64,000 nucleotides of DNA from Octopus sinensis (taxonomy: Eukaryota), in contig NC_042997.1 of NCBI RefSeq assembly GCF_006345805.1, positions 127,162,001-127,226,000 on the forward strand, in the 5' to 3' direction. The notes below the pieces were generated by a model, which saw nothing but the letters and a program-made list of their open reading frames with translations, had not been told where the DNA came from and made no database searches. The position numbers and the translations under genes were made by a program. Of this stretch, positions 441 through 58,904 are shown piece after piece (positions within the stretch are counted from its first letter, which is position 1; each line of letters opens with the position of its first letter).

Positions 441-443
<3 letters not shown>

Positions 444-654
444 TTCTTTACTACCCACAAGGGGCTAAACATAGAGGGGACAAACAAAGGGATTAAGTCG
501 ATTATATCGACCCAGTGCGAAACTGGTACTTTATTTATCGATCCCGAAAGGATGAAAGGCAAAGTCGTCCTCGGCGGAATTTGAACTCAGAACGTAATGA
601 CAGACGAAATACCGCTAAGCATTTCGCCCGGCGCGCTAACGTTTCTGCCAGCTC
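441..654 (-). mobile_element. tRNA-derived SINE, family A (Meta-domain-like core, tail A)
   Basis: Reverse complement reads GAGCTGGCAGAAACGTTAGC...GTTCAAATTCC (A/B-box-like), core GCCTTTCATCCTTTCGGGATCGATAAA, tail TTTAGCCCCTTGTGGGTAGTAAAGAAATA; many copies in window. Confidence 0.85.
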
Positions 655-3544: not shown

Positions 3545-4340
3545 TACAAGGTCTGATTAATAAGTATCCGGTCTGTTGTCATAGTAACGAAGCTAAAGCA
3601 CGCAGAGTACAGCCGCTTGGCACAAATTTACCTTGTAGTCTGCTGTGCCCTCTCACAATGTTTTAACGTTCTTGCTCACTTCCGCTGTTTACAGCAGTGC
3701 TTGAAAGGAAGGTGTGTAGCGTGTGATCGTCACGTTGACCATGTCAGAGAAAGTCGAGCAAAGAATCTGCATCAAATTTTACTGTAGGCTTGGTGATTGC
3801 TGCTCAGAGGTCTACGCTAAGTTTTAGGAAAGTTTTCATCTTTCTCGATGCAATCAAAGAGATCTTTTCCAACTGAAACCCGAGTGTCTTTTTGGTTAGC
3901 TGAAAGCAGTTTTGGCACAAACTTGGCGGACTCGCGTTTTATAACCAAATCTTCAGTTATAATAGATTCAACTGAACCATCACTAATCTACACATCCTCT
4001 GATAACTCACGGATGCTGATTCGAAGATTTCCCTTCGCAGATGCACGCACATCTATGATGTTTTTCTCAGTTTTTCTGGTTGTGGGTCTCCCAGAATGTT
4101 CAATATCGACATTTTTCGGCCATCTTGGAAACGTTTGAACAACTCGTACGCTTGTGTGCGGCTCATACACTCCTCTCCATACACTTTCTGCAACTTTGCG
4201 TAGGCCTCTGTGCAGGGATTAAAACTTAGTGCGCATGCACGGCAAAATTTAAGGTCGATCTGTACCAAGCAACTTCACTCTGTGTGCTTTAGCTTCGTTG
4301 CTATGGTAACAGTCCGGATACTTATTGAACAGACCACGTA
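3545..4340. mobile_element. Non-autonomous mariner derivative
   Basis: TA-flanked inverted ends (GGTCTGATTAATAAGTATCCGG / CCGGATACTTATTGAACAGACC); mariner N-terminal HTH remnants on both strands (MSEKVEQRICIKF on +; AYAKLQKVYGEECMSRTQAYELFKRFQDGR on -). Confidence 0.85.
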
Positions 4341-18785: not shown

Positions 18786-20869
18786 GGTTGGGCGTGGGAT
18801 GCCCTTTCCTTCTATGTTCATTTGTCGACTCTCTTAGCACCAGCTGGATGTCTAGGAGCTCCCCATAGCTGCAAGTAATCAGTCGGGTTCATTATTCTGA
18901 TTACTGTTTTGTCGTTGAACCCTTGTAACCCAACCCCTATTCAGACAAGTGTTTCTACCGTGCTATTTCTGTTTGATGTTAAGTATTGCACACAGTATTC
19001 TGGTGTAGCACCCATCACAGACTGCTACACGGTAGGCTCCAAGATCTAACTTCCATAGTCATGTAACAAGTAGTACGTGCTCTATAGTCACATATGAAAT
19101 ATATAAATGATAGTTTGGTTGCCCTCTCATAGCATTTGTTCTTTTGTCTAGTTTGGTTTTGGGTTAGTATTTTTTACGGTCTGCTTTTTCTTCGATTTTG
19201 AGAACCAAATTAAATTTCTCTTCAGTGATTCAGCTACGTGTTGCTTCCGGCTACTTCATTAGCTTATTAGCAGTTAGCTCCTTATTTGTACCTATATAGT
19301 ATTTTAATCAGACGTTTGGTGTCTTATCAATTTTTGTAGCCCTTCAGTTATTTGGTTCTGTAGTGTTTAAACTATTTCTTTGTTGATATAGCCTTCTACG
19401 ATTGTTCAGGCGTTGAGTTCGTTGTTTGGAACTATCACCACCATTATGTATTATTCACTGTCCATACTCTCTAACAATATTCTTCTGTCTCCTTCTATTG
19501 GCACTGCATTGTTTTCTGTTATATTTAACTAGTTCATAAAAAAATCACTTTGGGTTGGAGACTAACAGTTTGTTTTGTTCAAATGATAGATTTTGCTTTT
19601 CATGCTGCCATATATTCCCAGCAATTTTGCGAGCATCTCTTGTTTTTTTGGCCCTTGTGGGTAATAAAGAAACCGAGCATCTTTTGTTTTATATGTTTCT
19701 TTTTTTATTTTCCAACTGTTGTTATATTTTTTGTAGTACTTGTTTCTCCCGGTCCTTTTGTTTCAGTTGTGCCTTTTTGTTATGGATTTTAAAGACTGGG
19801 GGATATTTCCGTTTATTTTGTATCTTTCAATCTCTGTGTTTGCTTCCCGAGTTGTTTGTCAGGGATTTATATTCTCATATGTGTACCACTGAAAGATTAC
19901 TAATTTCCTTTTGAAACACCTATGGTTGCTGCATATATTAATTTCGCTTATCATGTTGTTATCAACGCTCATATCTGTTCAAATTTGCGTTTTCGTTGCT
20001 TCTATTTAGTCTTTGGGATGGGTTTCTTTCATTGGTCCATAGAAAAGCTCTATTGATTTTCATTCTTGAAATATTTCTATCTTTAGATTGCTTATTTTCA
20101 TGTTCAGGATTTCCATCTTTAGAATTACCTGTTTTTAAATTTTTCAAACATTATTTCTTATTCACAGTTTTATTTGTGTTGTTTTAGTTCGACTTTTGCT
20201 GGTCAGCATTCTGTAAATACTCAAGGATTTCGTTTTGTTGTGTGTTCTTATATTTCCTGTATGATGTGTTAAATCTATCTTCGTGGTTCACGTTCTCAAT
20301 GCTTTTTTAAAATTTTCATTGTTTTGTTTTGTTCATTAATTGCTTTCGTTATGTATTCCTTCTCTTATGTCTACTATCTCATTTTTTAACAGAAAATCTT
20401 CTTTAAATTATCTAACCTGTTAGGATCCGACATTACATTTAGATCACAGTAATTTTCTCTCCATAATTTTTATATCAAAATATTGTCGTGATTTCGTTTT
20501 TGTAGTTGACTGCGGTTGTCAATATGTGCATAGAGCTGTATTCCTAGATTGTTATAATTTTAATCGGGTACTGATCGATAAGTTTTTGGCAATGCTGAGT
20601 TTTGTACAATCCATATTTCGTACATTTATAACTGAAATTAGAAATCCATTTCTCTATCTAACTTTGAGCTGAACAATAAGGTCTTTGCATTATTGTTTGT
20701 AATATTCGTGCTTGTTGGGTGACTGAACCTGTTTCTTATTGATATGATCCATACTTCGTTAGTTTGTTTACATTTGCCGTTCGGTCTCCTATTAGGAAAA
20801 ATATTTGTAATACATTAATTCTCTGGGGTAAATATCAATGAATTTTACAAGATGAAGGCCTCTTCAGTT

Positions 20870-21992
20870 GTGAAAACTGCTGCTTCTTCTCGGAGTCGTG
20901 CCCGCAAATCCAGCTCTCGTCACCGGTGATGACGCTCGGCATGGACGATAGGTCATCAGCGGCACGCTGACGAAGATCTTGACAGACTTCGACTCGATGT
21001 TTTTTCTGCTCAGTGGTCAGCAGAGGACAAACTTGACAGAGACGCGCCGCATGTTCAATACAGACGTTAGGATTGCTTGTACGGACCCATACAACAGACC
21101 GACAGTATCAGCAATGTTGTTGATTGTCCACCAACGATCCTCATGCACAAGCTGATGAATTATCTCCACATTTCTGAGGATGACGCTCGTGGCAGGTCTC
21201 CCGGATCGCTCCTTCCGCTTTTGAAGCGCTCGTACCATTCGAAACATTGCGTCCGACCCATCGCCTCGTCGCCATAAGCTTGCCGAAGTATGCTCAACAT
21301 CTCTGCAGCAGACTTTCCAAGTTTAACGCAAAATTTTACGATTCATTGTTCCAACTTCCTGTCCATGACAAAATCGGAGATAACAGCGTACATGTGATCA
21401 CAAAACATAAAGTCTACAACTTGGGAAGTAAACAGGGTGATGTCGCTCGGCACACTGCTTCATGAAAACCACTGCTAGCTCTCATTGCACACGCAATTGT
21501 GCACTGCTATGTGTTGGCACGCTACAGAATTAACCCGGACATAAGGCGGCGAGCTGGCAGAAACGTTAGCATGCCGGGCGAATGGTTTAGCGGTATTTCG
21601 TCTGCCGCTACGTTCAAATTCCGCCGAGGTCGACTTTGCCTTTTATCCTTTCGGGGTCGATTAAATAAGTACCAGTTACGCACTGGGGTCGATATAATCG
21701 ACTTAGTCCATTTGCCTGTCCTTGTTTGTCCTCTCTGTGTTTAGCCCCTTGTGGGTAGTAAAGAAATAGCTATCTCGTCTGCCGTTGCATTCTGAGTTCA
21801 AATTCCGCTGAGGTCAACTTTGCCTTTTATCCTTTCGGGGTCGATAAATTAAGTACCAGTTGCGCACTGGGGTCGATTTAATCGACTTAATCCATCCCTT
21901 TGTCTGTCCTTGTTTGTCTCCTCTATGTTTAGCCCCTTGTGGGCAATAAAGAAATAAGAATTAACCCGGAAATTTTTTGATACCACTTTGTA
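20870..21992 (-). mobile_element. Mariner 5' half, interrupted by a SINE
   Basis: ERSGRPATS..IHQLVHEDRWWTINNIADTVGLLYGSVQAILTSVLNMRRVSVKFV; TIR-like TACAAAGTGGTATCAAAAAATTTCCGG ending at 21992. Confidence 0.8.
21543..21956 (+). mobile_element. SINE family A, dimeric, with 14-bp TSD
   Basis: Head-core-tailA-core-tailA; AGAATTAACCCGGA at 21526-21539 and 21957-21970. Confidence 0.9.
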
Positions 21993-22774
21993 GTTGCAGT
22001 TACGATTACACGTTGAAGCATTTCGGATAGAAGAAAACTGAGGTCAGAGATAGAGAATACAACGTAAAGTGGAGGTGAGAACATGTATGCATGCAAAGAA
22101 TTATTCTAACATATAATTACATATACATATAAACATGAACTCGTGTTAATTGCTTTACTACCATCGCGGAAAATAAATTTAACCATGTTCTAAATCTCAT
22201 ATTAAAATAGAAAATTTTACTCAGTAAATATCATTAGCTTTCGGTTCAAAACATTAAAGAACCAACCGAACTACTAACGAAGGTAGGCAGAGCAATTTGA
22301 CAGTATAGCGCAATTAATAACAATACTTTTCTTTGAGGGTCTCTCTTCAGGGTCTCACAACATTTTACAGTTGTTTCTAAAGTTTTTAAAAAAGTGCGAC
22401 TGACGTGTTTGCGCGCATCGGGGCCACTTCATCACTGTATGTATGTGCACACACACACATAATCATCGTTATTCCCACCACCACTACCACCATCATCATC
22501 ATCATCATCATCATGACTATTTACCTTCCGCTTTTTCATGCTCGCATAGTTCAGACAGGATTTGTTAACGTGGATTTTCTAAGATCGGGTGACTTTCCAG
22601 TCACCAATCCACACCTATTTCCAGGTAAGGTGTTATGCCTCACTATAGCCAAACGTATATCTTCAAAGAAGACTGGAAAAGAACAGCGTCTCATGTATGA
22701 CGGTGACACTCGTTTACAACCATCACGTGATAGCAAGACAATAGTATACGCACACACCTGTACACACACGCGCG

Positions 22775-23012
<238 letters not shown>

Positions 23013-23209
23013 CGGACGTGCTGTCACTTCGGCTCCGAAGGTAATCGTTAATTTTGACTATTTATAGCCCATATTTTGTGTACATTTTTGTAAATAAGTT
23101 GTGTAAGGCACCCAACTTTCGTTTGAGTGCTTTTCCAAGGGAAGAATTCGCCCCTAGGGGCAGTTTCAACCCCATTTCATTTCTGTAATTTTCTTCTCGA
23201 CATTAGAAA

Positions 23210-25098
23210 ATGTCGAGAAATTTTATTGTAGAACGCTGGTCGCGTTCCTTTATGGACCAGCATTTTCCTAGTCTGGAAACGCTAGGAGAAGAAAAAAAGA
23301 ACTCATGCATGCAAAGTGCAAACATGAATATCGTTGGAATGAACGCTGCAACCACGTGCGGTAACAGCCCTGTCACCACCGCCATCACCATTAACAACAA
23401 CAACAACGAGATTACTACTGCTACCACCACCACCACCTCCACCACCACCACCACCACTACCACCACAACCAACATAAATGATAAAAATGAAACTCACGCA
23501 AATACTATTAAGAAAAACAACAACAACAACAAGAACAACAATAAAAATGAACTATCTAATAGTGAAGATGTTAATACAAAAAAATCAACAACACCAGTAA
23601 ATTTCGCTGACACTCTGCGTCAGAAGAAAGAGATTGTAACATTTACAAATGAAGAGCTCATAGAAACGAGAGCTCTCTTTACAACCCGTGGGCAAGATTT
23701 AGTGCTACATACACCTCAACACATAAAGCAAGAAATAGAAAATAAGACAATTATATATAAAATTATAAGACAAAACAAAAAACTAAATGAACAGATTACA
23801 AAAACAGATGTAGAAAAATGCTTAAAAAACATAATAAAGGAAAACAATATATAAACTGGGGTCCCCAGTTTAACACAGTAGTGGTCCGCTTCCCTAACCA
23901 GGAAGTGGCAAAAGCTCACTCTACTGAGTCTCTGGGAAATGATGAAATCATCATGGTCCCATACTATAAAAACCAGAGAGTGAGTCGAATCACTATTAAA
24001 AATGTAATTCCCGAGATTCCTAACAAATGGATAACAGGGGCAATCTGTTACCATTTAAAAAATATCAACATTTTGGAAACCGCCGTGTACCTTGGCGACA
24101 TTTGGGGTGGGAAAACAATAGTGGTGACCATACAGATTGAGGGGGCCTCTATCGAGAGCCTACCGGATAAGATCCACTTGGAAAATGGGCAATGCCTATA
24201 TGTTGTAGCAGAAGGCAAAAAGCCTAGATGCTACAACTGTGGCAGCCCCGAACATTTAATTGCCAAGTGCGCTCTGGTACAGAAAAACAAGAAAGAACAA
24301 ATCAGAAAACAAATAAAAAAACCCTTGTTGCCAACACCAACACACTCAATTATGGAACAATGCCAAGAAAAACAACAAACCAGCAAACAAACCCCAACAA
24401 CATCACCAAGAAAAGAAACAGTACCAACATAATCACCGTTGACGTCACAACCAATTCAACATGTTGAATCAACAAAAAATAGACCAACACCCACACCGAG
24501 GACGACAATTAAAAAGACAGAAAACAGTGACGAGAAGACAAATTCTACCCCTAACACCACAACAACACAAACACCGCACAAAACATCAACAATTTCTACA
24601 AGCATACATATGAACCCAAATGCTTTGCCTCTACCCCATACTGATACGTCGGACGACGAAAGTTCGACGGAATGGCAAATAGCCACAGGGGGTAAAAGGA
24701 AAAGATCCAAAAAATCCACCAAACAAGGAAGTAAAGCAGGGAGATATCTAACTCCGGACAACATCCTCCTAGACAATCAAAAAAGCAATGAACCCGTAAA
24801 ACCACACACACAACTAACTGCAATAGACACAGACAATAAAGAATTAATGGACTACATCACATCCAACACGGACATATGTGAAGATGACTTTAAGACAAAC
24901 AATCATCCGCACACCACACCACCGAAACACATCAGAATTTTACACATAACACAAGCACAACACCACATACTGAAAACAATATTTCCGAATGCGGTAGGCG
25001 GGTTTCAACGATACCTGTCGAAAAAACTATACACACACCTCATCAAAAACAATACAAAAGAAGAAGAAAAAAATGAAACTTTTAAAATGAGTAAGTGA
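23210..25098 (+). pseudogene. LINE ORF1 (gag-like), one frameshift and one nonsense codon
   Basis: Pieces 23210-23854, 23818-24432 and 24439-25098 (last two in the same frame across a TAA); CYNCGSPEHLIAKC zinc knuckle. Confidence 0.8.
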
Positions 25099-25153
25099 CC
25101 TCCTCTTGCCTCTTGTCTCTTCTAATGTAGTGTGTAAAACACAATTTTCGTAA

Positions 25154-28100
25154 ATGTCAAGTATGCTTAAATTAGGTTGTGTGAATGCGCGTGGCTTGGC
25201 ATCGGCTTGGAAGCAAGGTTACCTTCTAAACGACATCAAGTCACTGAACGTGGATATAGTAGCTATCAGTGAAACCAGACTCAGTAAGCCGCGGGCCCTC
25301 GAGTCCATGTTTGGCAATCAATTTGACATTTATTTTTCTCCCTGTCTGCCGAACATGGGTGGTGGAAGTACCGCGGTGCTTTTTCGAAAGAGTCTAAATG
25401 TAAAAGTAAGAGCAATATTCCTAGACCCGGAGGGTAGGCTTGTTGTCTTGGACGTGGATGGCAGAAATGGGTGTGCATTCCGTCTGATGGCAGTTTATGC
25501 ACCGTCCTTAACGGGTCGGGCGGATTTCTTCAGACGTCTAGAGGTTTTCCTGGGTACGTCTAGACCTTTACTGTTAGTAGGGGATTGGAACGCTACCTTG
25601 GACACGCATCTAGATTATGTGGGAAGGGATAGAAATAGAAGGGGGTGTAAGAGCCTCAAAGACCTGCTCAGACGTTTCCATTTGTCTGACAGGTTCCGAC
25701 TCGACCATCCGAACGTGCCAACGTGGACTTGGACAAACCGCGTCGGATCGTCGAGATCTTATCTAGATAGAATTCTATGCAGGACAGCGGATAGGGATAG
25801 TGTAGGATGTCCACAATTTAAAATAGTCAGCTACACAGATCACAAATTTGTTACGTGTACGCTCGACTTAGATAAAACACATAGGCAGGGTCCAGGTTAC
25901 TGGAAACTGAACACGTCGCTGTTAGCGCGACAGGTTTACAAGAACCGGATTAGCGAGTTAATTAAGAGGGCGCTGACGGGAGCAGTCGTTAACAACCGCT
26001 GGTGGTACGCCCTGAAAATGGCAAGAAAATCGGAATCAATTAGGTTTAGCAAGGAATTATCGATAGAACGAAATAGAGTAGAGGGAGACTTGGTTAAGAA
26101 GCTAGAAGAGGCACTTACCACTGGCAGCGCAACCAACGTGCTGGCTGCGAGGATTGCCCTCGACCAACACCTCAACGCCAAGCACGAAGGTTGCGTCGTC
26201 AGAGCTAAAATGCGTGCCTTAAGGAACGAAGGGATCGAAGCTGCGCGAGAGGCCCGGGTAGCGGAGGCACAGCGTGGCAACAGAGCCACCATTCGGTCTC
26301 TAATAGATCAACAGGGATGCAGTTTACTCGAACCCGAAAGGATGTGTGAGGCCTTTCAACAGCACTTTGCTCGACTGTTTGGTGCGAGTGGTGGGTCGGA
26401 ACGCGAGATGGATTTCAGTGCCTACCTGACCGACCTGCCGCGGCTCTCGGCAAGAAAAGCGGAATGTTGTGAAAGTCCCATCACAGCCGCTGACGTGTGG
26501 GATGCGATGGCGGGCTGCGCGAGGGATAAGTCGCCTGGATTGGATGGTTTACCCTACGAGCTGTATTGTCAAATGCCAGACTTGTTTGGCGACCTCTTGG
26601 CATCAGTCTACTGCAACTGGCAACAAAACGGGTTTCGTGAGCCGAGGCGCAGTGACGTTGCTGAAGAAAGACCCAAACAAGGGGAATTTTATAGATAATT
26701 TCAGGCCCATCACTCTGCTCAACGCAGATTTGAAAATTTTGGCCAAAGTAATAGCCGAGAGGTTGGCGCTTGTCATTGGTAAACTGGTCGACAGGGCGCA
26801 AACATGCGCCGTGCCGGGCAGAACCATACATGACAACCTCCATCTGATGCGCTACATTGTGGACAGGGTAGTTAAGGATCCTGGCATGGGTGGGGCGCTG
26901 ATAAATTTGGATCAGTTTAAAGCCTTCGATAGGGTCGACCATCGGTACTTGGCGGCCGTCCTCAGGGCGGCTGGCTTCGGTCCCGTCTTCCGCGGTTGGA
27001 TCGCTGCCTTGTATAGCGGCATCCGATCGGTGATTCGGGTGAACGGTCACCTGTCGAAACCGTTTGACATCACGCGTTCGGTCCGTCAGGGGTGTCCCCT
27101 GTCGGCGCTTCTGTATGTATTGACTCTCGAGCCACTACTGCGGAAGCTGGCGACACTGAGGGGCATCCCACGGGAACTGGTTGCGGGACGAGCGTGTCGG
27201 CATATGCGGACGATGTCACCGTCATAGTGTCGAGCGACAAACACATCCAGATGATAGGCGAGACACTAAGAAAATACGAAGCGGTAACGGGAGCAAAGAT
27301 TAACCCGGAAAAGTCAGTGGGTTTGCTACTCGGCACCTGGAGAAGCAAGCCCATGCCGTCCGACTGCGGCTCAGTAGTGGGACGCTGGACGGACGGACCG
27401 GTTAAATTGCTCGGGGTGTGGTTCAGTCCGGACCTCCAAATGGATAAGAACTGGGACGAAATCACGAGTAGAGTGGTCGCTCTCAGCCAAACATGGGCCG
27501 AGAGAAAGCTGTCTCTAAAAGGCCGGGCGGAAGTGGCGAACGCGTACATCGCATCCGTCATCGATTACCGCCTGACCGTCGTACCTTGTCCCGACGCCAC
27601 CATCACCAAACTGGAACGCATACTCTTCCGCTTCCTGTGGAAGGGTGGCGTTCCGATGGTGAGGAAGTCCATTTGCTGTCAACATTCGTTGAATGGAGGA
27701 CTGGGCATGCCGTGGTTGATGATGCGCAGGCATGCGCTGAGACTGCGACATCTCTGGAACTTCATCGACGACGGTGAACAGGTGTGGGCGCCGTTTGTGA
27801 GTCGCGACTTCTCGCAGCTCGTCTCACTGACCGAACTGCAAACGTGGATCAAAAAGAGACCGAAACTGGGCGATTGGCGCCGAGAGTGTCGCTAAGCTCT
27901 ACAGCAGCTCTGCCGACCGGGGTCAAACTTGTGCAACTTACAAACGACTAAAGCGTTCTATAGAGGACTAGTGGAGGGGAGGTCCGACGACACACTCGGG
28001 GCAAACCTTGGCGTTGACGAGAAATTCCTAACCCGCCTGTTCAGGACGACGTTCGGGCCGGGGCCTATGGATAACTTCCAGAAATCCCTGGCTTGGCAGT

Positions 28101-28591
28101 GCTATCGAGACGCACTACCTGTTCGAGAGAAGAGCTACAGACACGGTTCGAAAACCATCACCGGACCGACCTGCCCGAGATGCGGTCAGAGCGACGAAAC
28201 CGTTCTGCACGCACTCGTGCAGTGTCCAGATATTTCAGAGCTGTGGTCCTTCGTCGAACAGCTGTTGTCACGTGTAGGTCGGGCTCGCCTATCGGCCGAG
28301 TCTATCGTGAATATTGTTCCACCACCTTCCTTTAAACGGGAAGGGAAAACGGTTTTCGTTACGCTGATGGCTATGGCGAAAGAATGTGTGTGGTGGACGC
28401 GTTTGAAAGGACTGCAAACAAACACCTTCCTCTCTGGCCAGTCTCTCGTCAACTTTTTCAAGTACCACTTGAAAAGGAGGATGAGAATAGAGAGGAAGGC
28501 TTTGTCGAACGAATGTTTTAATAAAAAGTGGGTAAAAGTGGCAAAAATGGTCAGTATGAAAGACGACACTATTTTAAGCATAAATCTGTAA
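25154..28591 (+). pseudogene. LINE ORF2: APE endonuclease, reverse transcriptase and C-terminal zinc finger
   Basis: NARGL, ISET, YAPS, GDWN, YLDR, TDH (APE); SPGLDG, FRPITLLNADLKILAK, KAFDRVDH, RQGCPLS, YADD (RT); CPRC..ETVLHALVQC; two frameshifts and one stop. Confidence 0.92.
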
Positions 28592-28881
28592 CGAAAAGAG
28601 ACAACGAGAAGTAAGGCGACTTACTCATGTGTTCTTTTTCGAATTGTCTGAGGTGACCTTGGTCTTTTTTGTAGGTTTTTCTTTCCAAGGCTACACTTAA
28701 ACTGTGAACCTTATATATATATATATTGCTTTTTTATACACCACACAACCCACAGATCCCTATTGATCAAACGTTTTTTTTTTTTCGTGCCCCACCCATC
28801 CCACCTCGAAAAGAAAAAATTCTACATTGTATTTCGTCCATTTTTATTCTGTGTTTAGCCCTGTGTGGCTACAATAGAAAG

Positions 28882-28882
<1 letters not shown>

Positions 28883-28959
<77 letters not shown>
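28883..28959. repeat. (TATC)n tract at the 3' flank of the LINE
   Basis: Pure run directly abutting the LINE 3' end. Confidence 0.95.
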
Positions 28960-29195
28960 GTATGTGAGAGAGAGAGAGAGTGTATGTGTCTGTCTGTCTC
29001 TCTGTCTGTCTATCTGTACGACCCAGTCATAAGGCTTTAGCCAATCCGAGGCTTTAGAGAAATCACTTGCCCAAGGTGTTGCACTGTAGGACCTTACAGG
29101 TGAGAAATATATTTTTTTAACCATACAGCCACATCAGCACTCTTTCCTTTTCACGCTTTCTTTTTTATACAGACACGCACACACATATACGCGTG

Positions 29196-29227
<32 letters not shown>

Positions 29228-29565
29228 AAGATGCATTATAAAATTCGTTTTGAATAGGACTTGAGCTTTCGCAGTGGTGGGAATTTTTATCCATTGTTTA
29301 TACAGAGGAAAAAAAGAAGAGCTCCTTTATTGGAATCGATGCCAAAGTAGTAGAATACATTTGTTGTTCAAATTCTTTTTAAAAGTTTTTTCTGGAGTAA
29401 AAATCTTATAAGTTTAAATATTTGTAATGCGAAGATGAAATGGTAAAGAAAGGAAAAAATAAAATTATAATAAGGTGTGAGAATGCATGGGTTATTATCT
29501 CTATTGAAAAAATAAAGGTTGGAAACAAGAAATTGATAATTTAAGGTAAGTATATGCGCTTGTGT

Positions 29566-30045
29566 GGGGGCGCAATGGCCCAGTGGTTAGGGCAGCGTAC
29601 TCGCAGTCGTAGGATCGCGGTTTCGATTCCCAGACCGGGCATTGTGAGTGTTTATTGAGCGAAAACACCTAAAGGTCCACAAGCCTCTGTACTCTTTCAC
29701 CACAATTTTCTCTCACTCTTTCTCCTGTTTCTGTTGTACCTGTATTTCAAAGGGCCAGCTTTGTCACACTCGGTGTCACGCTGAATCTCTCCGAGAACTA
29801 CGTTAAGGATACACGTGTCTTTGGAGTGCTCTGCCACTTGTACGTTAATAAATGAGCTGCGACTTCACTGGTGCTAAGCTGTATCGGCCTTTGCCTTTCC
29901 CCTCGATAACACTGGTGGCGTGGAGAGGGGAGGCTGGTATGCATGGGCGACTGTTGGTCTTCCATAAACAACCTTGCCCAGATTTGTGCCTCGGAGGGTA
30001 ACTTTCTAGGTGCAATACCATGGTCATTCATGACCGAAGGGAGTC
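29566..30045 (+). mobile_element. tRNA-derived SINE, family C, with 3' extension
   Basis: GGGGCGCAATGGCCCAGTGGTTAGGGCAGCG..GGTTTCGATTCCC head; related copy at 33935-34204. Confidence 0.75.
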
Positions 30046-30199
30046 ACACAATATGCGTTTGTGTTTTTGGTGTGTTGTGTGAATGTCTTTGTCACGATTG
30101 TCTTGCGTGTGAATGTGGGTGAATATGTTTGTGTGTTGTGTGTATGTGTGATACTTGTGTGCATGTGTGTTAAAATATGTGTATGGACTTATTACGAAT

Positions 30200-31050
30200 C
30201 CAGGAAATGCCAGCTGACAATTTCGCGCTCAGCTGAAGGTCTTTGATTTTAAGTACCGTGGATTCTATCATAGACTTCCATAGATGCAGGAGTGGCTGTG
30301 TGGTAAGTAGTTTGTTTACCAACCACATGGTTCCGGGTTCAGTCCCACCGCATGGCACCTTGGGCAAGTGTCTTCTACTATAGCCTCAGGCCGACCAAAG
30401 CCTTGTGAGTGGATTTGGTAGACGGAAACTGAAAGAAGCCCGTCGTATGTATGTATATATGTATATGTGTGTGTGTGTGTATGTGTGTGTGTATGTTTGT
30501 GTGTCAACCGATGCTGGTGTGTTTACGGCCCCGTAACTTAGCGGTTCGGCAAAAAAGACCGATAGAATAAGTACTAGGCTTCCAAAGAATAAGTCCTAGG
30601 GTCGATTTGCTCGACTAAAGGCGGTCAAATAATTTGCTCGACATGGCCGCGGTCAAATGACTGAAACAAGTAAAAGAGTAAAAAGAGAGATGCATGGAAC
30701 TGTTCCGTAGTGCCTGTAACATGCTTCAAAATCATCTGACATTCAAGTCTGCCAGTCACAGTCAACAAAATTTGCCTTCTTCAGTGTATATGTAGAGATG
30801 ATTTCCTGTATGGACGCAAAAATCTGGACTATGAAGAAGGAGCATGAAGGTACGCACACCATGCTTTTATTGAAGATGCAAGTGTTACATGATGGAAGTA
30901 CACGATAACAGAAGATTTATGCACATATTCCATTCATATCAAATATTGTCACTTTACGTTAACAGATTTTACTTGCCACTTCTACCGTGTTGAATCCCAG
31001 ATCATATCAAATACTGTATTTTAGAGGTTACCGCACCATATTAGAGGGTG
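30200..31050 (+). mobile_element. Decayed RTE-like LINE, post-RT region, interrupted by a SINE
   Basis: Fragments DFKYRG (cf. FKYLGS), FLYGRKN..WTMKKEHEGT (cf. LYG.E.WT) and IYAHIPFISNIV. Confidence 0.5.
30284..30688 (+). mobile_element. SINE family D (tRNA head, internal microsatellite, RTE-like tail)
   Basis: GCAGGAGTGGCTGTGTGGTAAG..GGTTCAGTCCC head; tail CATGGCCGCGGTCAAATGACTGAAACAAGTAAAAGA. Confidence 0.85.
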
Positions 31051-32795
31051 AAGGTAGAGGCGCATAGCTTAGTGGTTAGGATGTCGTAAGATTATGGTTT
31101 CGATTCCTGTATTGTGTTCTTGAGCAAGACACTTCATTTCACTTTGTTCCAATCCATTTGTTTTGTTTTTTTTATTTTACCCTTTACTTTCTCTTCCTTT
31201 CACATCTTTCTTTCTTTCTGTTTCTTTATATTTATGTGAGTCTTACAAATTTAACACTTACTTTGAATAAACAAATTATTTGCGCTTATACTGTATATTG
31301 TTTGTTGTTGAATCGATTATCAAGAATGTTGTATCTGAGGTCGTTATGACATACTCTCTTTACGATTAGAAAACTTTGCTTGTAACATGACCTACAATTA
31401 CCTGTTGAAACAAATTCACTTAAATGTTAAAATACGACGCCTCGATCAGGGAGGAATATATATGCACCCACCAGAGAACCCGTGAAACCAGCCCTATGCT
31501 CCTTAAGGAGTGATGAGGACTCTCCAATATAAGGCAAAAATAACTCAACTATATTGATGTTATTGGTAGAAATTCACAACATGAAACTGAGGACCTACTA
31601 AAACTGATGAGACACAGAATTTTCTGGCAGGGCATTGTGAAACACATTTGGATTGCAGTCGCTTGAAAAAGAGTGTTCATATATATACAGGAAATTAATA
31701 ATTAGAATTAACTAATACATATCATATTCCTTTACTCAAGAAACTTAAAAATTTTAAAATTCAGTCCTTATGTTACTATAACAACCCGCTTTCTAAAAAT
31801 TCTCACAATTAAATAACTTAATGCAAATATTCTAGAAAGCAGCCGCACATATACACGAACAAACCTAAAAATTCTTGCATATTGATGCTTAAATTCCTTA
31901 AACAAACTAATTCAAAATATATCGGTGCATATTTAATAGAATTATACAGAAGATAAAATACATATTTCGAGGAAATTTAAATTGAAACATTTATATGATT
32001 ATGCTTTTATTTTACCTAAACTTTCTCTCCATTTTCTGAAGGACTTCATGCAATTATTCTAATACGCATGCATACAGTGAAACTCACAAACACATGCGCT
32101 GAGAAATACAAATACCATTGTGCTCAATCATACACATATGGAAAATAACACAAGTAAAATAAGACATATGCGCACACACGCTCAAACATACCTGGACACA
32201 CACACACACACACACACCACACACACTAACACAAAACATCAGTTTCTGTTTTTTGATTTTTGTTTAATTGTTTTGTTTCAATTAATTCAGTAGAAATAAC
32301 ACGTATGCAGTACCTCTGGCTCCTCGATTGTTATTTTTCTCTTCCCTCAACTTTTCATTCTTTGCTTAATCCCCCTCCCTTCCCCTATTTTAATCATATC
32401 AGATTTTGACTCCGCAACAATTCTTTTACACTGCCTCGGTATCCGTTTCTAATAATGAAGCATTTCAGTTTTATCTATATAGACATTAGTAACAAGATAA
32501 TGTTCATTACTGGTTGAATAATCCTCCAGGCAGAAACTAAAGATCCTGCAAATATGAATATTATAATAGAGTTGATACTGTTTATAGTACTGCGTCTTCC
32601 TATCAGTAAATACTCAACTGTTATTCATGAAATTTATTTAAAATAACTCACACATATACATGGTGAAAGTCCTATATAAATGGCGAAATAAAATTGTACG
32701 GAAAAAGAAAAACGAAAAGAAAACGACGAAAAATAAACTGCGTCAGCAACTGCGACTCATCATCAGCTGTCGACTGGACAATACTGCAGTTTTGA

Positions 32796-33630
32796 AAGGC
32801 GGCGAGCCGGCAGAAATGTTAGCACGCCGGGCGAAATGCGTAGCCGTATTTCGTCTGCCGTTACGTTCTGAGTTCAAATTCCGCCTAGGTCGATTTTGCC
32901 TTTCATCCTTTCGGGGACGATAAATTTAGTACCAGTTACGCACTGGGGTCGATATAATCGACTTAATCTGTCTGCCTGTCCTTGTTTGTCTCCTCTATGT
33001 TTAGCCCCTTGTGGGCAATAAAGAAATAAGAAACGTTAGCACACCGGGCGAAATGCTTAGCGGTATTTCTTCTGTCTTTATCTTCTGAGTTCAAATTCTG
33101 CTGAGGTCTACTTTGCTTTCATTTTTTCGGGGTCGATAAATTAAGTACCAGTTGCGTGCTGGAGTCGATCTAATCAGCTGGCCCCCTCCCCCAAAATATC
33201 GGGGTTTGTGCCTATAGTAGAAAAGAATATTCAAAGGCCCGAGCTGGCAGAAACGTTAGCACGCCACGCGAAATGCTTAGTGGTATTTCGTCTGCCGTTA
33301 CGTTCTGAGTTCAAATTCCGCCGAGGTCGACTTTGCCTTTCATCCTTTCGAGGTCGATAAATTAAAGTACCAGTTACGCTCTGGGGTCGATGTAATCAAC
33401 TTAATACCTATGTCCGTCCTTGTTTGTCCCCTCTATGTTTAGCCCCTTGTGGGTAATAAAGAAATAGGTATTTCGTCTGCTGTTACGTTCTGAGTTCAAA
33501 TTCCGTCTAGGTCGACTTTGACTTTCATCCTTTCGGGGTCGATAAAGTAAGTACCGTTGCGTACTGGTGTAGATCCAATCGACTGGCTCCCTCCCCAAAT
33601 ATTTTGGGCCTTGTGCCTAGAGTAGAAAAA
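32796..33630 (+). mobile_element. Tandem of two dimeric family A SINEs
   Basis: Four core copies with tails alternating A,B,A,B; AATACTGCA(G/A)TTT on both flanks (32780-32792, 33631-33643). Confidence 0.9.
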
Positions 33631-33801
33631 AATACTGCAATTTCGGATCCTTCCAGGTTGTATACTTAATCTTTTTTTCCGGTTTAACATTCCACCAGAT
33701 CCCTGAGAGACTTCAGCATAATGTACGCCGTAGCAAGGTTCCCAGTAAATTTTCTGGTATGAGATTTTGAAATATCTCTTCCATCTCTTAGTCCCAAAAT
33801 T

Positions 33802-33877
33802 TATTAAAATTTCGGCCACTTAGCCTTCGTCAGATAGTCCGACAAAGGCTAGTTGTCCGAAACTTCGAAATCAATAT
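33802..33877. ncRNA. Two back-to-back hammerhead-like motifs on opposite strands
   Basis: Minus: TAT-CTGACGA-A-GGC-taagtg-GCC-GAAA; plus: ATAGT-CCGACAA-AGG..CC-GAAACTTCGAAATC-AATAT. Confidence 0.55.
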
Positions 33878-33934
33878 TACTCCTCTCTTTTCTAAAAGAT
33901 TAATAAACGCGTTCTTTTCTTTTCGCCGTTTTCA

Positions 33935-34204
33935 AGCCTAGTCAACTCATGGGCCCGGTTTCCCGGGTTCTATGGCGTATGTGGACTGGGCGGGACGCCA
34001 GTCCATCGCAGCAGCGTTACTCAAGAAATAGGAAGAAAGAGTGAGAGAAAGTTAAGGTGAAAAAGTACAACAGGTGTCGCCACCACTCTCTGCCGGAGCC
34101 TCGTGGAGCTTTAGGTGTTTTCGCTCAATAAACATACACAACGCCCGGTCTTGGAATCGAAACCGCGAGTCCGCTGCCCTAACCACTAGGCCATTGCACC
34201 TCCA
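33935..34204 (-). mobile_element. SINE family C
   Basis: Reverse complement of the head at 29566. Confidence 0.8.
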
Positions 34205-41774: not shown

Positions 41775-41982
41775 TTGGTTTCAAATTTTGGCACGAGGCC
41801 AGCAAGTACGGAGGTATGAGTAAGTCGATTACATCAACCCCGGTGAACATCTGGTACTTATCTTATCGATCCTGGAAGGATGAAAGGCAAGTCGACCGCG
41901 GTAGAATTTGAACTCAGAACGTAAAGACGGACGAAATGCTGCTAATCATTTTGCCCGGCACAGTAATGGTTTTGCCAGCTTG
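41775..41982 (-). mobile_element. SINE family A (tail B)
   Basis: Core plus GGCCTCGTGCCAAAATTTGAAACC tail. Confidence 0.8.
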
Positions 41983-42653
41983 CAACGCAGATCACCTCCA
42001 GTTTCTTGAATTGCCAACCCTATCTAAATACGGCAAGTCTTACAATCTAGCACTGTACGGTTTCTGACACTCGAAGTAATTCCCTACAGGCATACACATA
42101 TGTTGTTTAGCGCAGAAACTTATGTAGAATAAACTGAGAAATAACAATGCCACAGGCATTATAGTTCCATATATTGCATGCACTCAGTGCTCAGATATAG
42201 CTTATTCATTTAAGCCAACCAAACACCTTTGTGTGGTCGTTCGACTCGCTACAAGTTGCAACTGAATCTCCCTCAATTGACACAATACATTGTTAAAAGC
42301 AGAATGCTACATTCCATAATGTAGTTCCAGACGAGCAGAAAGGAGTCGTCAAAGCTGGTAGGTTTTCAGAGTTAAGGCTGATGTGGTGTTAAATAACAAC
42401 AACTTGTTTGACAGAAACAACCAATCAGTAAGACAGCCGAAAAATTAAAGCGGCCAATAATAATTGGTTTGTAGCCAATTTAATAAATTCCTTCTCAAAA
42501 TGAGTCTGTGTCATGTGAAGCATCGAAAAATAGAGAGTTTGGTGGGTGTAATGGGAAATTATTGACCAATTACAAGAGGCAATGGAGAAATTCCACATAA
42601 ATTTAATTAGGTCTTCTCACTGTCATGTTTTCAATTTTACATACAATGTATTA

Positions 42654-52043: not shown

Positions 52044-52246
52044 GGTTTCAAATTTTGACTCAACGTCAGCAATTTCGGGGTAATGGGTATATCGATTATA
52101 TTGAATCCATTATTCATCTGGTACTTATTGTATGGACCCCGAAAGGATGAAAGCCGAAGTAGGAATTTGAACTCAGATTGTAAATCTGATGAAGCATTTT
52201 GCATTTTGCCCTGCGTGCTAATGATTCTGCCAACTCGACGCCTTAA
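52044..52246 (-). mobile_element. SINE family A (tail B) with 13-bp TSD
   Basis: AGGATGTAATATT at 52031-52043 and 52248-52260. Confidence 0.8.
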
Positions 52247-52268: not shown

Positions 52269-52471
52269 AGGCGAGCTGGAAGAGTCGTTAGCACACCGGG
52301 CGAAATACTTGACGGTATTTCGTTTGTCTTTACGTTCTGAGTTAAAATTTCGCCTAGGTCAACTTTGCCTTTCACCTTTCTGGGATAAATAAAATAATTA
52401 GCAGTTAGCACTGAGGTCGATGTAATCGACTTAGCCCCAAAACTGCTGGCCTTGTGCCATATTTGAAACCA
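52269..52471 (+). mobile_element. SINE family A (tail B)
   Basis: Head, core and GGCCTTGTGCCATATTTGAAACC tail. Confidence 0.8.
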
Positions 52472-58212: not shown

Positions 58213-58610
58213 TTCTCTTCTACTCTAGGCACAAGGCCCGAAATATTTGGGGAGGGTGTCAGTCGATTACATCGACTCCAGTACGCAACTGGTACTTAAT
58301 TTATCGACCCCTAAAGGATGAAAGGCAAAGTCGACCTCGGCGGAATTTGAACTCAGAACGTAAAGACAGACAAAATACCTATTTCTTTATTACTTACAAG
58401 GGGCTAAACACAGAGGGGACAAACAAGGAGGACAGACATAGGTATTAAGTCGATTACACCGACCCCAGTGCGTAACTGGTACTTCAATTTATCGACCCCG
58501 AAAGGATGAAAGGCAAAGTCGACCTCGGCGGAATTTGAACTCAGAACGTAAAGACAGACGAAATACCGCTAAGCATTTTGCCCAGTGTGCTAACGTTTCT
58601 GCAAGCTCAC
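58213..58610 (-). mobile_element. SINE family A, dimeric (tail A then tail B)
   Basis: Same layout as 33236-33630. Confidence 0.88.
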
Positions 58611-58904
58611 CGTATATTCAATAAAGCTATTGAAATGTATCCTGTGTTCATTTCCAGCTGCATTTATTTCTGTATATCAGCTGCTTGGATTATTCAAGAT
58701 ACATACATACATGTGCATACCCAGACATACAGAAAGACACACACACATAGACACACAGACACACGCACAGACACGCACACACACACATACATACATACAT
58801 ACATACATACATACATACATACATACATACATACATACATACATACATACATAAATACATACATACATACATACACATATACATACATATGTGCATAACA
58901 TCAT

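What the first reader, a model, noticed from the sequence alone, without database searches (positions are those of the whole stretch)
28836..28882. LINE 3' terminus matches tail A of the dominant SINE: candidate Tx1-SINE partnership
Seen: the LINE ends TCTGTGTTTAGCCCTGTGTGGCTACAATAGAAAGT and SINE tail A (21734-21768) reads TCTGTGTTTAGCCCCTTGTGGGTAGTAAAGAAATA. The first 14 nt are identical and similarity continues to the terminus. Both can fold a small hairpin (TAGCC-ctgtgt-GGCTA; GCCC-cttgt-GGGC/T). Known: SINEs borrow the 3' ends of 'stringent' partner LINEs, usually CR1, L2 or RTE and rarely L1/Tx1. Inference: this SINE is or was mobilised by this LINE or a relative. The SINE copies are not in (TATC)n, so the true partner may be a non-specific sister family.
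Basis: partly seen in the sequence, partly recalled or inferred. Interest (0 to 1): 0.75.

Follow-up and report, generated by a model that had tools for sequence, protein, structure and literature searches.

The report
SINE tail from a sister LINE
The end of this microsatellite-targeting LINE does resemble the tail of the genome's common SINE, but that end is shared by a whole group of related LINEs, and a sister family with a nearly identical end is the likely mobiliser of the SINE.

Summary
Window 28848-28882 and SINE tail A (21734-21768) share 27 of 35 ungapped bases, and 0 of 100,000 shuffles reach that. The terminus is family-wide: 30 of 30 genomic copies, each followed by (TATC)n.

The element is a defective copy of a young (TATC)n-specific L1/Tx1-like LINE. 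Its last ~45 nt are one version of a 3' module found in every related LINE family I sampled: TCTATGT, a variable hairpin, then AATAAAGAAAT. The stems differ between families but stay complementary.

SINE tail A matches a sister family (F1) much better. Identity is 90-93% over the last 30 nt against 74-75% for this LINE, and F1 carries the same GGGT and GGGC variants as the SINE.

SINE insertions do not follow this LINE's target. 57 of 100 tail-A ends are followed by GGTA and none by (TATC)n. Target-site duplications start with GGT in 16 of 18 copies. 45 SINE copies do sit in (TATC)n, but 51 sit in the opposite orientation.

The exact partner is unresolved, because F1 ends lack the GGTA preference (0 of 95). 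This is a new member of a known kind.

The parts
23014..28882 (+). Near full-length but defective copy of a (TATC)n-specific L1/Tx1-like LINE
   Evidence: It is bounded by (TATC)n on both sides. Pfam domains run in LINE order. The reading frames are broken into 7 stop-to-stop pieces. The last 483 nt occur at 96-98% identity in at least 29 other places, and the first look gave 1243 candidates.
22775..23012 (+). 5' flanking (TATC)n target microsatellite, 59.5 units
   Evidence: Tandem Repeats Finder; sequence.
28883..28959 (+). 3' flanking (TATC)n target microsatellite, 19.2 perfect units
   Evidence: The same flank follows 30 of 30 family copies.
23791..24432 (+). ORF1 piece with a CCHC zinc knuckle. 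Neighbouring ORF1-region frames are 23207-23854 and 24433-25098.
   Evidence: PF00098, E 2.9e-4; frames. Sister elements have an ORF1 of 349-589 aa with the same knuckle.
25154..26698 (+). ORF2 piece 1: apurinic-type endonuclease and the start of the reverse transcriptase
   Evidence: PF03372, E 2.9e-15. It is 53% identical over 511 aa to the intact ORF2 of sister element L064.
26430..27895 (+). ORF2 pieces 2 and 3: reverse transcriptase, split by a frameshift (26430-27227 and 27068-27895)
   Evidence: PF00078, E 1.4e-20 and 3.2e-6; frames.
27896..28591 (+). ORF2 piece 4: C-terminal zf-RVT region, in the same frame as piece 3 after a stop
   Evidence: PF13966, E 1.2e-6. It is 49% identical to the C-terminus of sister ORF2 L061.
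28847..28879 (+). Predicted two-tier 3' stem-loop of the LINE. Lower stem: 28847-28852 with 28874-28879. Upper stem: 28856-28860 with 28867-28871. Loop CTGTGT: 28861-28866.
   Evidence: strand folding: -10.7 kcal/mol, z -2.42. It matches covariance model R1 of the clade's 3' ends at 38.6 bits.
21540..21768 (+). A 5'-truncated SINE (21771-21956) follows directly, and one target-site duplication, AGAATTAACCCGGA, flanks the pair.
32796..33626 (+). Four SINE units joined head to tail: tail A full length, tail B from about position 20, tail A full length, tail B from about position 53. Junctions read GAAATA|AGAAACG and GAAATA|GGTATTTCG.
   Evidence: The outer flanks TGCAGTTTTG and TGCAATTTCG agree at 8 of 10 positions by eye, so they may be one target-site duplication.
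441..654 (-). SINE copy with tail A
   Evidence: R1 hit at 442-486.
58379..58612 (-). SINE copy with tail A, followed by a 5'-truncated tail-B SINE (58261-58379)
   Evidence: R1 hit at 58381-58425.
19647..19673 (+). About 26 nt of an F1-type tail on its own (TTGGCCCTTGTGGGTAATAAAGAAAC), flanked by a 17-nt direct repeat, CGAGCATCT(C/T)TTGTTTT. This is an extremely 5'-truncated insertion.
   Evidence: R1 hit at 19630-19673, 27.2 bits, E 0.0034; sequence.

Best explanation
The 35-nt match is real and comes from a 3' stem-loop module shared by a clade of L1/Tx1-like LINEs; SINE tail A was likely borrowed from, and is likely mobilised by, a sister family (F1-like), not by this (TATC)n-specific LINE.

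Shown:
- The window element is a defective copy of an abundant, young LINE that always lies in (TATC)n.
- Its ORF2 is 49-53% identical to ORF2 of sister families that have intact copies.
- All sampled families end with a pyrimidine-rich stretch, TCTATGT, a family-specific hairpin, and AATAAAGAAAT(A).
- TCTATGT can pair with AATAAAGA as a lower stem.
- The hairpin arms differ between families but stay complementary.
- The SINE tail is closest to F1 in the hairpin and terminus, identical to F4 in the 29 nt upstream, and shares GTTTAGCC with the window LINE.

Inferred:
- The reverse transcriptase of such a LINE would recognise this stem-loop ('stringent' recognition) and start target-primed reverse transcription at GAAAT(A).
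- The SINE uses that recognition in trans.
- The source LINE is an F1 relative not yet sampled, or an extinct one.
For: 1. Family-wide terminus and target: 30 of 30 copies.

2. Same clade. A Pfam zf-RVT search of the genome gave 24,042 first-look candidates, of which 150 were scored and 30 fetched. These fall into four families, at 64-76% nucleotide identity to each other and to the window LINE over the ORF2 C-terminus. Full-length sisters have a CCHC ORF1 and an ORF2 of 1128-1140 aa with Exo_endo_phos, RVT_1 and zf-RVT. They are 49-53% identical in protein to the window LINE. The best solved relative is human LINE-1 ORF2p, E 5.5e-69.

3. Tail identity.
- In BLAST against the 30 loci, 13 F1 loci carry 24-28 nt at 96-100% identity to the tail-A terminus, about 560 nt after zf-RVT.
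- Global identity of tail A over the last 30 / 45 / 69 nt: F1 90-93 / 85-89 / 71-74%; F4 61-74 / 74-79 / 72-77%; window family 74-75 / 65-66 / 64%.
- Among 95 LINE ends with the F1/F2 3'-UTR anchor, both GGGTAATAAAG and GGGCAATAAAG variants occur, as in the SINE.

4. Structure.
- 11 of the 15 LINE and tail-A ends folded give the same two-tier fold.
- There are 15 distinct arm pairs. Cognate arms make a mean of 4.7 contiguous pairs, non-cognate arms 0.83, and 8.6% of 210 non-cognate combinations reach 3.
- On the MAFFT alignment, 77% of cells pair and the covariation score is 0.194 against 0.144 (4 of 500 shuffles as high).
- On the model-fitted alignment of 95 distinct rows, the score is 0.155 against 0.123 (0 of 500), and the innermost pair is CG in 57 rows and UA in 23.

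5. The SINE does not follow this LINE's target. Of 100 listed tail-A ends, 57 are followed by A+GGTA and 0 by (TATC)n (my hand count). Target-site duplications of 6-20 bp start with GGT in 16 of 18 copies not followed by another SINE.

6. Links between F1 and the SINE.
- 4 of 20 further F1 ends are followed by AAGAA, as are 9 of 100 SINE ends.
- Two F1 copies (L156, L157) run straight into a SINE at AGAAACG.
- A 26-nt F1-type tail with its own 17-nt target-site duplication lies in the window.
Against: - No sampled LINE has the whole tail A. F1 lacks the third T of GTTTAG and the F4-like upstream 29 nt. A pattern joining F4-like upstream sequence to the F1-like hairpin found 0 copies.
- F1 does not share the SINE's main target. 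0 of 95 anchored F1/F2 ends are followed by A+GGTA, and only 1 of 33 inspected F1 flanks starts with GGT.
- Sampling is narrow. Loci came from the 150 best-scoring zf-RVT hits of 24,042 candidates plus one DNA search. CR1, L2 and RTE 3' ends of this genome were never examined.
- Single-sequence fold z-scores are weak (-0.2 to -2.6), and the family-typical terminus of the window LINE scores only -0.63.
- RNAalifold predicted no consensus structure on the MAFFT alignment.
- The cognate-arm statistic is biased, because cognate arms were chosen as the best hairpin.
- 45 SINE copies do lie in (TATC)n with a phased junction.
Confidence: 0.72

Rival explanations
1. The (TATC)n-specific LINE family of the window is, or was, a mobiliser of tail-A SINEs, at least occasionally.
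For: - The termini are homologous: 27 of 35.
- The window LINE alone shares GTTTAGCC with the SINE.
- 45 exact tail-A ends are followed by (TATC)3 or more. All 10 loci fetched are true SINEs, and 9 of those 10 have TATC repeats on both sides.
- Their junctions are phased. 31 of 45 have ...A directly before TATC, the LINE's own phase; 14 have ...T then CTATC; none reads GAAATATCTATC (hand count).
- The family is young and abundant: 96-98% identity and 1243 first-look candidates.
Against: - The opposite orientation is as frequent: 51 ends are followed by (GATA)3, and 36 of those share one phase. A strand-specific LINE therefore need not be invoked.
- The 45 copies compare with at least 15,923 exact copies of just one tail subtype.
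- 0 of 100 listed ends lie in (TATC)n.
- No SINE carries this LINE's own hairpin (0 hits).
- Tail identity is 15-20 points lower than for F1.
Confidence: 0.15
2. Tail A comes from, and is used by, a LINE of another clade (CR1, L2 or RTE), and the likeness to L1/Tx1-like ends is convergent.
For: Most published SINE/LINE pairs involve those clades (recalled; the surveys are described in PMC3747384, passages read). I did not examine those clades' 3' ends in this genome.
Against: - Tail A shares 28 of 30 terminal nt with F1 and 29 contiguous nt with F4.
- The module is present in every sampled family of one protein clade, and it diverges in step with the proteins.
Confidence: 0.03
3. The match is chance similarity between two AT-rich 3' ends.
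For: The match is short (35 nt) with a 14-nt core, and that core holds for only one SINE copy.
Against: - 0 of 100,000 shuffles reach the observed identity.
- Both strings lie at element termini.
- Sister LINE families supply intermediates that link the two sequences.
Confidence: 0.01

Closest known systems
UnaL2 / UnaSINE1 of the eel (L2 clade): 'stringent' LINE-SINE partnership through a shared 3' stem-loop (Kajikawa & Okada 2002, as cited in PMC4824008 and PMC3747384; passages read)
   Same: The SINE tail is homologous to a LINE 3' end. A conserved terminal stem-loop is followed by a short conserved or repeated terminus. Duplicated terminal units (GAAATAGAAATA, AAGAAATAAGAAA) would fit slippage.
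   Different: The LINE clade differs: L1/Tx1-like with APE, RT and zf-RVT, not L2. There is no experimental evidence here. No Rfam family, including any LINE 3' element model, matched window 21000-34000.
Stringent-type L1-clade LINEs with a conserved 3' stem-loop shared with SINEs (monocot L1 lineage with maize and sorghum SINEs; Chlamydomonas L1-1_CR / SINEX-3_CR; Ohshima 2012/2013, PMC3472496 search listing only, PMC3747384 passages read)
   Same: L1-group proteins. The 3' stem has variable, compensating arms and conserved flanking bases. A SINE carries the same end.
   Different: Those elements end in poly(A). Here the elements end at GAAAT(A) with no A-tail, and they are animal, site-selective elements.
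SINEU / Tx1-Mar of crocodilians (Kojima 2015, PMC4494074; passages read)
   Same: A SINE is tied to target-selective Tx1-type LINEs.
   Different: There the link is a shared target (Mariner-N4_AMi), and the passage read on SINEU-1, which is cut short, appears to say no LINE with a similar 3' end was found. Here the link is a shared tail, while the sampled LINE with the best tail match does not share the SINE's main target (GGTA).
Microsatellite-specific Tx1 elements: Kibi (TC)n, Koshi (TTC)n, and crocodilian Tx1 in (TTCC)n/(TTTC)n (Kojima & Fujiwara 2004, as described in PMC4494074; passages read)
   Same: An APE-type LINE found only inside one microsatellite and in one orientation (30 of 30 copies).
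   Different: The target is (TATC)n and the host is a mollusc. In the three literature searches I ran I saw no description of a (TATC)n-specific element.
Octopus tRNA-derived CORE-SINEs OR1/OR2 (Ohshima & Okada 1994, known to me only through citations in PMC4824008 and PMC4758252)
   Same: An abundant cephalopod SINE of about 230 nt. By my recollection its central part looks like the CORE domain.
   Different: I could not compare it with the published OR sequences. ARAGORN finds no tRNA-like gene in the window, so neither the tRNA head nor OR membership is shown here.

Membership tests
LINE-SINE partnership by shared 3' tail: window (TATC)n LINE with tail-A SINE | The SINE 3' tail is homologous to the 3' end of this LINE family, better than to other LINEs | tested here: not met
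   It is homologous (27 of 35; 74-75% over 30 nt), but F1 scores 90-93%, F2 87% and F5 80%.
LINE-SINE partnership by shared 3' tail: window (TATC)n LINE with tail-A SINE | SINE copies share the LINE's insertion target and orientation | tested here: not met
   0 of 100 listed ends lie in (TATC)n. There are 45 ends in TATC orientation against 51 in GATA orientation.
LINE-SINE partnership by shared 3' tail: F1-type sister LINE with tail-A SINE | Near-identical 3' terminal sequence | tested here: met
   24-28 nt at 96-100% identity in 13 F1 loci; 85-89% over 45 nt; parallel GGGT and GGGC variants.
LINE-SINE partnership by shared 3' tail: F1-type sister LINE with tail-A SINE | Shared target-site signature | tested here: inconclusive
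   The AAGAA class is shared (4 of 20 LINE ends; 9 of 100 SINE ends). The SINE's main GGTA class is absent from the LINE (0 of 95).
LINE-SINE partnership by shared 3' tail: F1-type sister LINE with tail-A SINE | Conserved 3' stem-loop with compensatory changes | tested here: met
   15 distinct complementary arm pairs. Covariation lies above shuffles. However, RNAalifold gave no consensus, and the fitted alignment leans towards the structure.
LINE-SINE partnership by shared 3' tail: F1-type sister LINE with tail-A SINE | Trans-mobilisation of the SINE by the LINE's proteins | not testable with these tools
   This needs a retrotransposition assay.
Tx1 clade of the L1 group of non-LTR retrotransposons | ORF2 with an N-terminal apurinic-type endonuclease and an L1-like reverse transcriptase | tested here: met
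   Pfam domains. The sister ORF2 aligns with human L1 ORF2p over residues 3-864, E 5.5e-69, far better than with R2 (E 1e-23).
Tx1 clade of the L1 group of non-LTR retrotransposons | Sequence-specific insertion | tested here: met
   30 of 30 copies lie in (TATC)n. Sister subfamilies have their own recurrent flanks.
Tx1 clade of the L1 group of non-LTR retrotransposons | RT-domain phylogeny places the element inside Tx1 rather than L1 proper | not tested
   No reference Tx1 or L1 RT set was available. Protein searches returned no clade names. Indirect support only: L1-Tx1 is the only L1-like class in the table of recently active LINEs of Octopus vulgaris (PMC13282606, passage read).
tRNA-derived CORE-SINE (octopus OR-type) | tRNA-related head with an internal Pol III promoter | tested here: inconclusive
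   ARAGORN finds no tRNA-like gene in the window. Any A-box or B-box likeness is only my reading by eye.
tRNA-derived CORE-SINE (octopus OR-type) | CORE central domain | not tested
   The resemblance is recalled. No reference sequence was compared.

The most novel reading that the evidence does not exclude
In this LINE clade and its SINE, the integration site is chosen largely by the RNA and not only by the endonuclease. Transcripts read a few bases past GAAAT(A) into the flank. That 3' extension (GGUAU..., AGAAAC..., or (UAUC)n) pairs with the nicked target or with a nascent cDNA. A copy would then pass its target preference to its offspring through its own flank. This would explain four things together: the many site-specific subfamilies with nearly the same proteins; a SINE with a GGTA preference that its best-matching LINE lacks; head-to-tail SINE-SINE and LINE-SINE concatemers joined exactly at the SINE's internal GGTATTTCG and AGAAACG; and the small SINE lineage inside (TATC)n.
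Probability: 0.25. Interest if true: 0.7.

Novelty: new member of a known kind. Interest (0 to 1): 0.45.

Why it matters
SINEs are reported to make up about 11.6% of an octopus genome and LINEs 12.9%, with L1-Tx1 among the recently active LINE classes (PMC13282606, passages read). tRNA-Core SINEs are named as main contributors (PMC8967140, passage read). None of the passages I read in the papers from three searches names the LINE that drives these SINEs.

Tying the dominant tail (at least 15,923 exact copies of one 23-mer) to a defined clade of L1/Tx1-like LINEs with a conserved 3' stem-loop gives a testable partner. It also adds an animal example of stringent 3'-end recognition in the L1 group. 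Finally, it shows a SINE with a sharp target motif, which bears on where these elements land in cephalopod genomes.

As a check on the finding itself, the result is more modest. The specific LINE that was flagged is a relative of the partner and is probably not the partner itself.

Tried and rejected
- RNAalifold on the MAFFT alignment of 25 ends predicted no pairs. The hairpins are out of register between families, so I used a named structure, a covariance model and a loop-anchored script instead.
- Rfam at E up to 1 on window 21000-34000 gave only four sub-threshold hits, none at the LINE or SINE ends.
- ARAGORN found no tRNA-like genes.
- Clade naming failed. Two searches of the 5.8-billion-protein set and one Atlas search returned relatives without clade names. 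The nearest named hits are Argonauta hians hypothetical proteins at 52-60% identity.
- Three patterns found nothing: SINE core plus this LINE's exact hairpin; F1/F2 anchor plus tail plus GGTA; F4-like upstream plus F1-like hairpin.
- The F1 anchor plus tail plus GGT gave 3 hits. All three read GGTGAAC, which looks like the 5' end of a following LINE.
- Partners for SINE tails B and C were not found. There were no hits in 30 LINE loci. In 608 kb of held sequence, 1 of 10 tail-B and 2 of 7 tail-C instances lacked a recognisable SINE core. The tail-B case (L069) has no ORF2 similarity.
- Earlier notes of this scan held nothing.
- The 2015 octopus genome paper is not held.
- I did not run sequencing-run searches, structure prediction or complex prediction.
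Full report
**What is at the coordinates.** Window 28848-28882 reads TCTGTGTTTAGCCCTGTGTGGCTACAATAGAAAGT and abuts a perfect (TATC)19 at 28883-28959. A second, longer (TATC)n lies at 22775-23012. Between them are stop-to-stop frames with LINE domains in order:
- a CCHC knuckle (23791-24432);
- Exo_endo_phos (25154-26698);
- RVT_1 in two shifted frames (26430-27227 and 27068-27895);
- zf-RVT (27896-28591).

The copy is near full length (about 23014-28882) but not coding-competent. ORF1 and ORF2 are each split by frameshifts and in-frame stops.

SINE tail A at 21734-21768 is as quoted. The two strings agree at 27 of 35 ungapped positions, and 0 of 100,000 shuffles reach that. The only 14-mer shared by the whole LINE and that SINE copy lies at the terminus of both. 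The 14-nt run is special to that SINE copy. The usual SINE has TCTATG and shares a 10-mer.

**The LINE family.** A search of the window's own genome (2.72 Gb) with the last 483 nt gave 1243 first-look candidates. The 40 that were scored are 96-100% identical. All 30 fetched copies end with the same terminus and are followed by TATCTATCT.... 27 of 30 end AATAAAAAGT, while the window copy and L010 have AATAGAAAGT. The family is therefore young, abundant and strictly (TATC)n-specific in one orientation.

**Sister families.**
- A search with Pfam zf-RVT found 24,042 first-look candidates. 150 were scored and 30 fetched.
- The fetched loci fall into four groups, which I call F1 to F4. They are 64-76% identical in DNA to each other and to the window LINE over the ORF2 C-terminus.
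- A fifth type (F5, L066) came from a place I fetched directly.
- Open-frame full-length members exist: ORF1 of 349-589 aa with a CCHC knuckle, and ORF2 of 1128-1140 aa with Exo_endo_phos, RVT_1 and zf-RVT.
- The window LINE's pieces are 53% (511 aa) and 49% (226 aa) identical to them.
- The best solved relative of a sister ORF2 is human LINE-1 ORF2p (E 5.5e-69 over residues 3-864), far ahead of R2.
- The elements are therefore L1-group. 'Tx1' fits the site specificity but was not tested by phylogeny, and protein searches gave no clade names.
- The nearest named proteins come from Argonauta hians, so the genome is from a cephalopod of the octopus kind.

**The shared 3' module.** About 560 nt after zf-RVT, every family ends with a pyrimidine-rich stretch, TCTATGT (or a near variant), a short hairpin, and AATAAAGAAAT(A). 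Folding predicts a two-tier stem-loop in 11 of the 15 LINE and tail-A ends folded. TCT.TGT pairs with A(U)A.AGA as a lower stem, and the hairpin sits above it.

The hairpin arms and loops differ between families but stay complementary:
| Element | 5' arm | Loop | 3' arm |
|---|---|---|---|
| Window family | TAGCC | CTGTGT | GGCTA |
| F1, F5, SINE tail A | GCCC | CTTGT | GGGT |
| F2 | GCCC | CTAGT | GGGT |
| F3 | GATT; TAATT | GTAT; TTTAT | AATC; AATTG |
| F4 | AACCT; CCCTT; TCCTG; TCCTTA | TTTAT; TGTAT; TTA; TTA | AGGTT; AAGGG; TAGGA; TAAGGA |

Further variants, ATCC/GGAT and ACCC/GGGT, appear.

Fifteen distinct arm pairs give a mean of 4.7 contiguous cognate pairs, against 0.83 for non-cognate combinations. 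This statistic is biased, because cognates were chosen as the best hairpin. The formal counts are positive but modest:
- On the MAFFT alignment, 77% of cells pair and the covariation score is 0.194 against 0.144 (4 of 500 shuffles as high).
- On the model-fitted alignment of 95 distinct rows, the score is 0.155 against 0.123 (0 of 500), and the innermost pair is CG in 57 rows and UA in 23. That alignment leans towards the structure.
- RNAalifold on the MAFFT alignment predicted nothing.
- Single-sequence z-scores run from -0.2 to -2.6.

The AATAAA in the module could serve polyadenylation in the LINE. Its retention in the SINE suggests a role in recognition as well. This is an inference.

**Which LINE end does tail A match?**
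| LINE family | Last 30 nt | Last 45 nt | Last 69 nt |
|---|---|---|---|
| F1 | 90-93% | 85-89% | 71-74% |
| F2 | 87% | 79% | 71% |
| F5 | 80% | 85% | 70% |
| F4 | 61-74% | 74-79% | 72-77% |
| Window family | 74-75% | 65-66% | 64% |

- Thirteen F1 loci carry 24-28 nt at 96-100% identity to the tail-A terminus.
- F4 shares a 28-29-nt stretch upstream of the hairpin, read by eye (ttgtctgtccttgtttgtcccctctatgt). BLAST gave 28-29 nt at 96-97% against two window copies.
- Among 95 LINE ends with the F1/F2 3'-UTR anchor, one ends TGTCCCCCTCTATGTTAGCCCCTTGTGGGTAATAAAGAAAT and three end ...CTCTATGTTAGCCCCTTGTGGGCAATAAAGAAAT. These mirror the two SINE subtypes, GGGT and GGGC.
- 13 of the 20 such copies I fetched show ORF2 homology upstream.
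- The tail is a mosaic relative to the sampled families. It is F4-like upstream and F1-like in the hairpin and end, and it shares GTTTAGCC only with the window LINE.
- A pattern for the F4-plus-F1 combination found nothing, so the true source is unsampled or extinct.
- CR1, L2 and RTE ends were not examined. With 28 of 30 identity already found, there is little room for a better match.

**Targets.** The exact 23-mer end of the GGGT subtype occurs 15,923 times. In my hand count of the 100 rows listed in genomic order:
- 57 are followed by A+GGTA and 63 by A+GGT;
- 15 are followed by exactly GGTATTTCGT, which is the SINE's own sequence from about position 43;
- 9 are followed by AAGAA;
- none is followed by (TATC)n.

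Among 29 copies 96% identical to window 33240-33467, 28 are followed by GGT. In 16 of the 18 not followed by another SINE, a direct repeat of 6-20 bp starts with GGT. One more copy, mis-flagged by my script, also has one. The main subtype is therefore site-selective, which is not what a '(TATC)n LINE partner' predicts.

The F1 LINE does not share this preference. 0 of 95 anchored ends are followed by A+GGTA, and only 1 of 33 inspected flanks starts with GGT. F1 does share the minor class: 4 of 20 ends are followed by AAGAA. Other subfamilies have their own recurrent flanks. One F4 group is followed by the same about 30-nt sequence in 6 of the copies fetched, and another by TCT in 10 of 13. The clade is therefore a radiation of target-selective elements.

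**SINEs inside (TATC)n.** 45 tail-A ends (30 GGGC, 15 GGGT) are followed by (TATC)3 or more. All 10 fetched are genuine SINEs, and 9 of those 10 have TATC repeats on both sides. Junctions are phased: 31 have ...A then TATC, and 14 have ...T then CTATC. The control for the opposite orientation gave 51 ends followed by (GATA)3, and 36 of those share one phase. With no strand bias, and a share near 0.1-0.3% of copies, I cannot separate rare use of the (TATC)n LINE from background insertion into these arrays. I give that rival 0.15.

**Concatemers.**
- Tail-A SINEs are often followed directly by a SINE that starts at GGTATTTCG or AGAAACG. This holds for 10 of 29 copies and for four cases in the window.
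- The 5' part of a target SINE is not found upstream.
- The window pair 21540+21771 has a single target-site duplication around both units.
- Two F1 LINE copies run into a SINE at AGAAACG.
- These junction motifs equal the two target motifs. That coincidence led me to the RNA-extension reading given as the novel case. It is an inference only.

**Literature.**
- Shared-tail partnerships and stem-loop recognition are established (PMC4824008 and PMC3747384, passages read).
- Stringent L1-clade examples exist in plants and green algae (PMC3747384, passages read).
- Tx1 elements specific for microsatellites, and a Tx1-SINE link through a shared target, are described (PMC4494074, passages read).
- Octopus repeat surveys list L1-Tx1 LINEs and abundant tRNA-Core SINEs (PMC13282606 and PMC8967140, passages read). 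I saw no named partner in the passages read, nor in the listings of three searches.
- Supplements were not opened, and Repbase reports are not held, so an existing database entry cannot be excluded.

**Verdict.** The flagged LINE is a relative of the likely partner and is probably not the partner itself. This is a new member of a known kind, with a side observation on target choice that deserves follow-up.

Noticed in passing
G000 copies listed; loci L068-L096; window 33466/33467 and 58379/58380: The main tail-A SINE subtype integrates at a sharp motif. 57 of 100 ends are followed by GGTA, and target-site duplications of 6-20 bp start with GGT in 16 of 18 copies. No sampled LINE shares this motif.
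   Followed up: partly
window 32796-33626, 21540-21956 and 58261-58612; loci L068, L069, L072, L080, L083, L086, L090, L095, L096: SINE units form head-to-tail concatemers, joined exactly at the SINE's internal GGTATTTCG (about position 43-53) or AGAAACG (about position 17-20). One target-site duplication surrounds the whole array. This suggests template switching or composite source genes.
   Followed up: partly
L156 and L157 (LINE-SINE junctions); L155 and L157 (same internal deletion): F1-type LINE 3' ends run directly into a SINE at AGAAACG. L155 and L157 share an internal deletion that joins about positions 3561 and 6661 of a full-length F1 element, so a non-autonomous deletion derivative has spread.
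   Followed up: no
window 19630-19690: A tail-only insertion of about 26 nt (F1-type hairpin plus AATAAAGAAAC) has a 17-nt target-site duplication. The terminal module alone seems enough to start an insertion.
   Followed up: partly
window 33029-33239, 33467-33626 and 58261-58379 (tail B); 41818-41983, 52092-52160 and 52270-52437 (tail C; coordinates are the BLAST-matched body, and the tails run beyond them): The same SINE body carries two other tails. Their hairpins keep the loop CTTGT but have different complementary arms (GGGC/GCCT and TGGC/GCCA). No partner LINE was found for them in the sequence I held.
   Followed up: partly
one search list, e.g. G000:C9:76607599-76623724, C3:72501693-72528860, C27:16380968-16526873: Many LINE copies of this clade lie in regular tandem arrays with spacing of about 3.6-5.7 kb. 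Several 3' ends are followed within about 40 nt by what looks like the 5' end of the next LINE (GGTGAAC......TTCGGCTCC...).
   Followed up: no
L069 (minus strand, about 413 nt from the end of the locus): A tail-B end is attached to a body that is neither the SINE core nor ORF2-like. It may be another non-autonomous element using the same tail.
   Followed up: no
window 28874-28879 against L002 and 26 other copies: The G in the window copy's AATAGAAAGT, shared only with L010, restores a C-G pair in the predicted lower stem. The family-typical AATAAAAAGT lacks that pair (z -2.42 against -0.63).
   Followed up: partly
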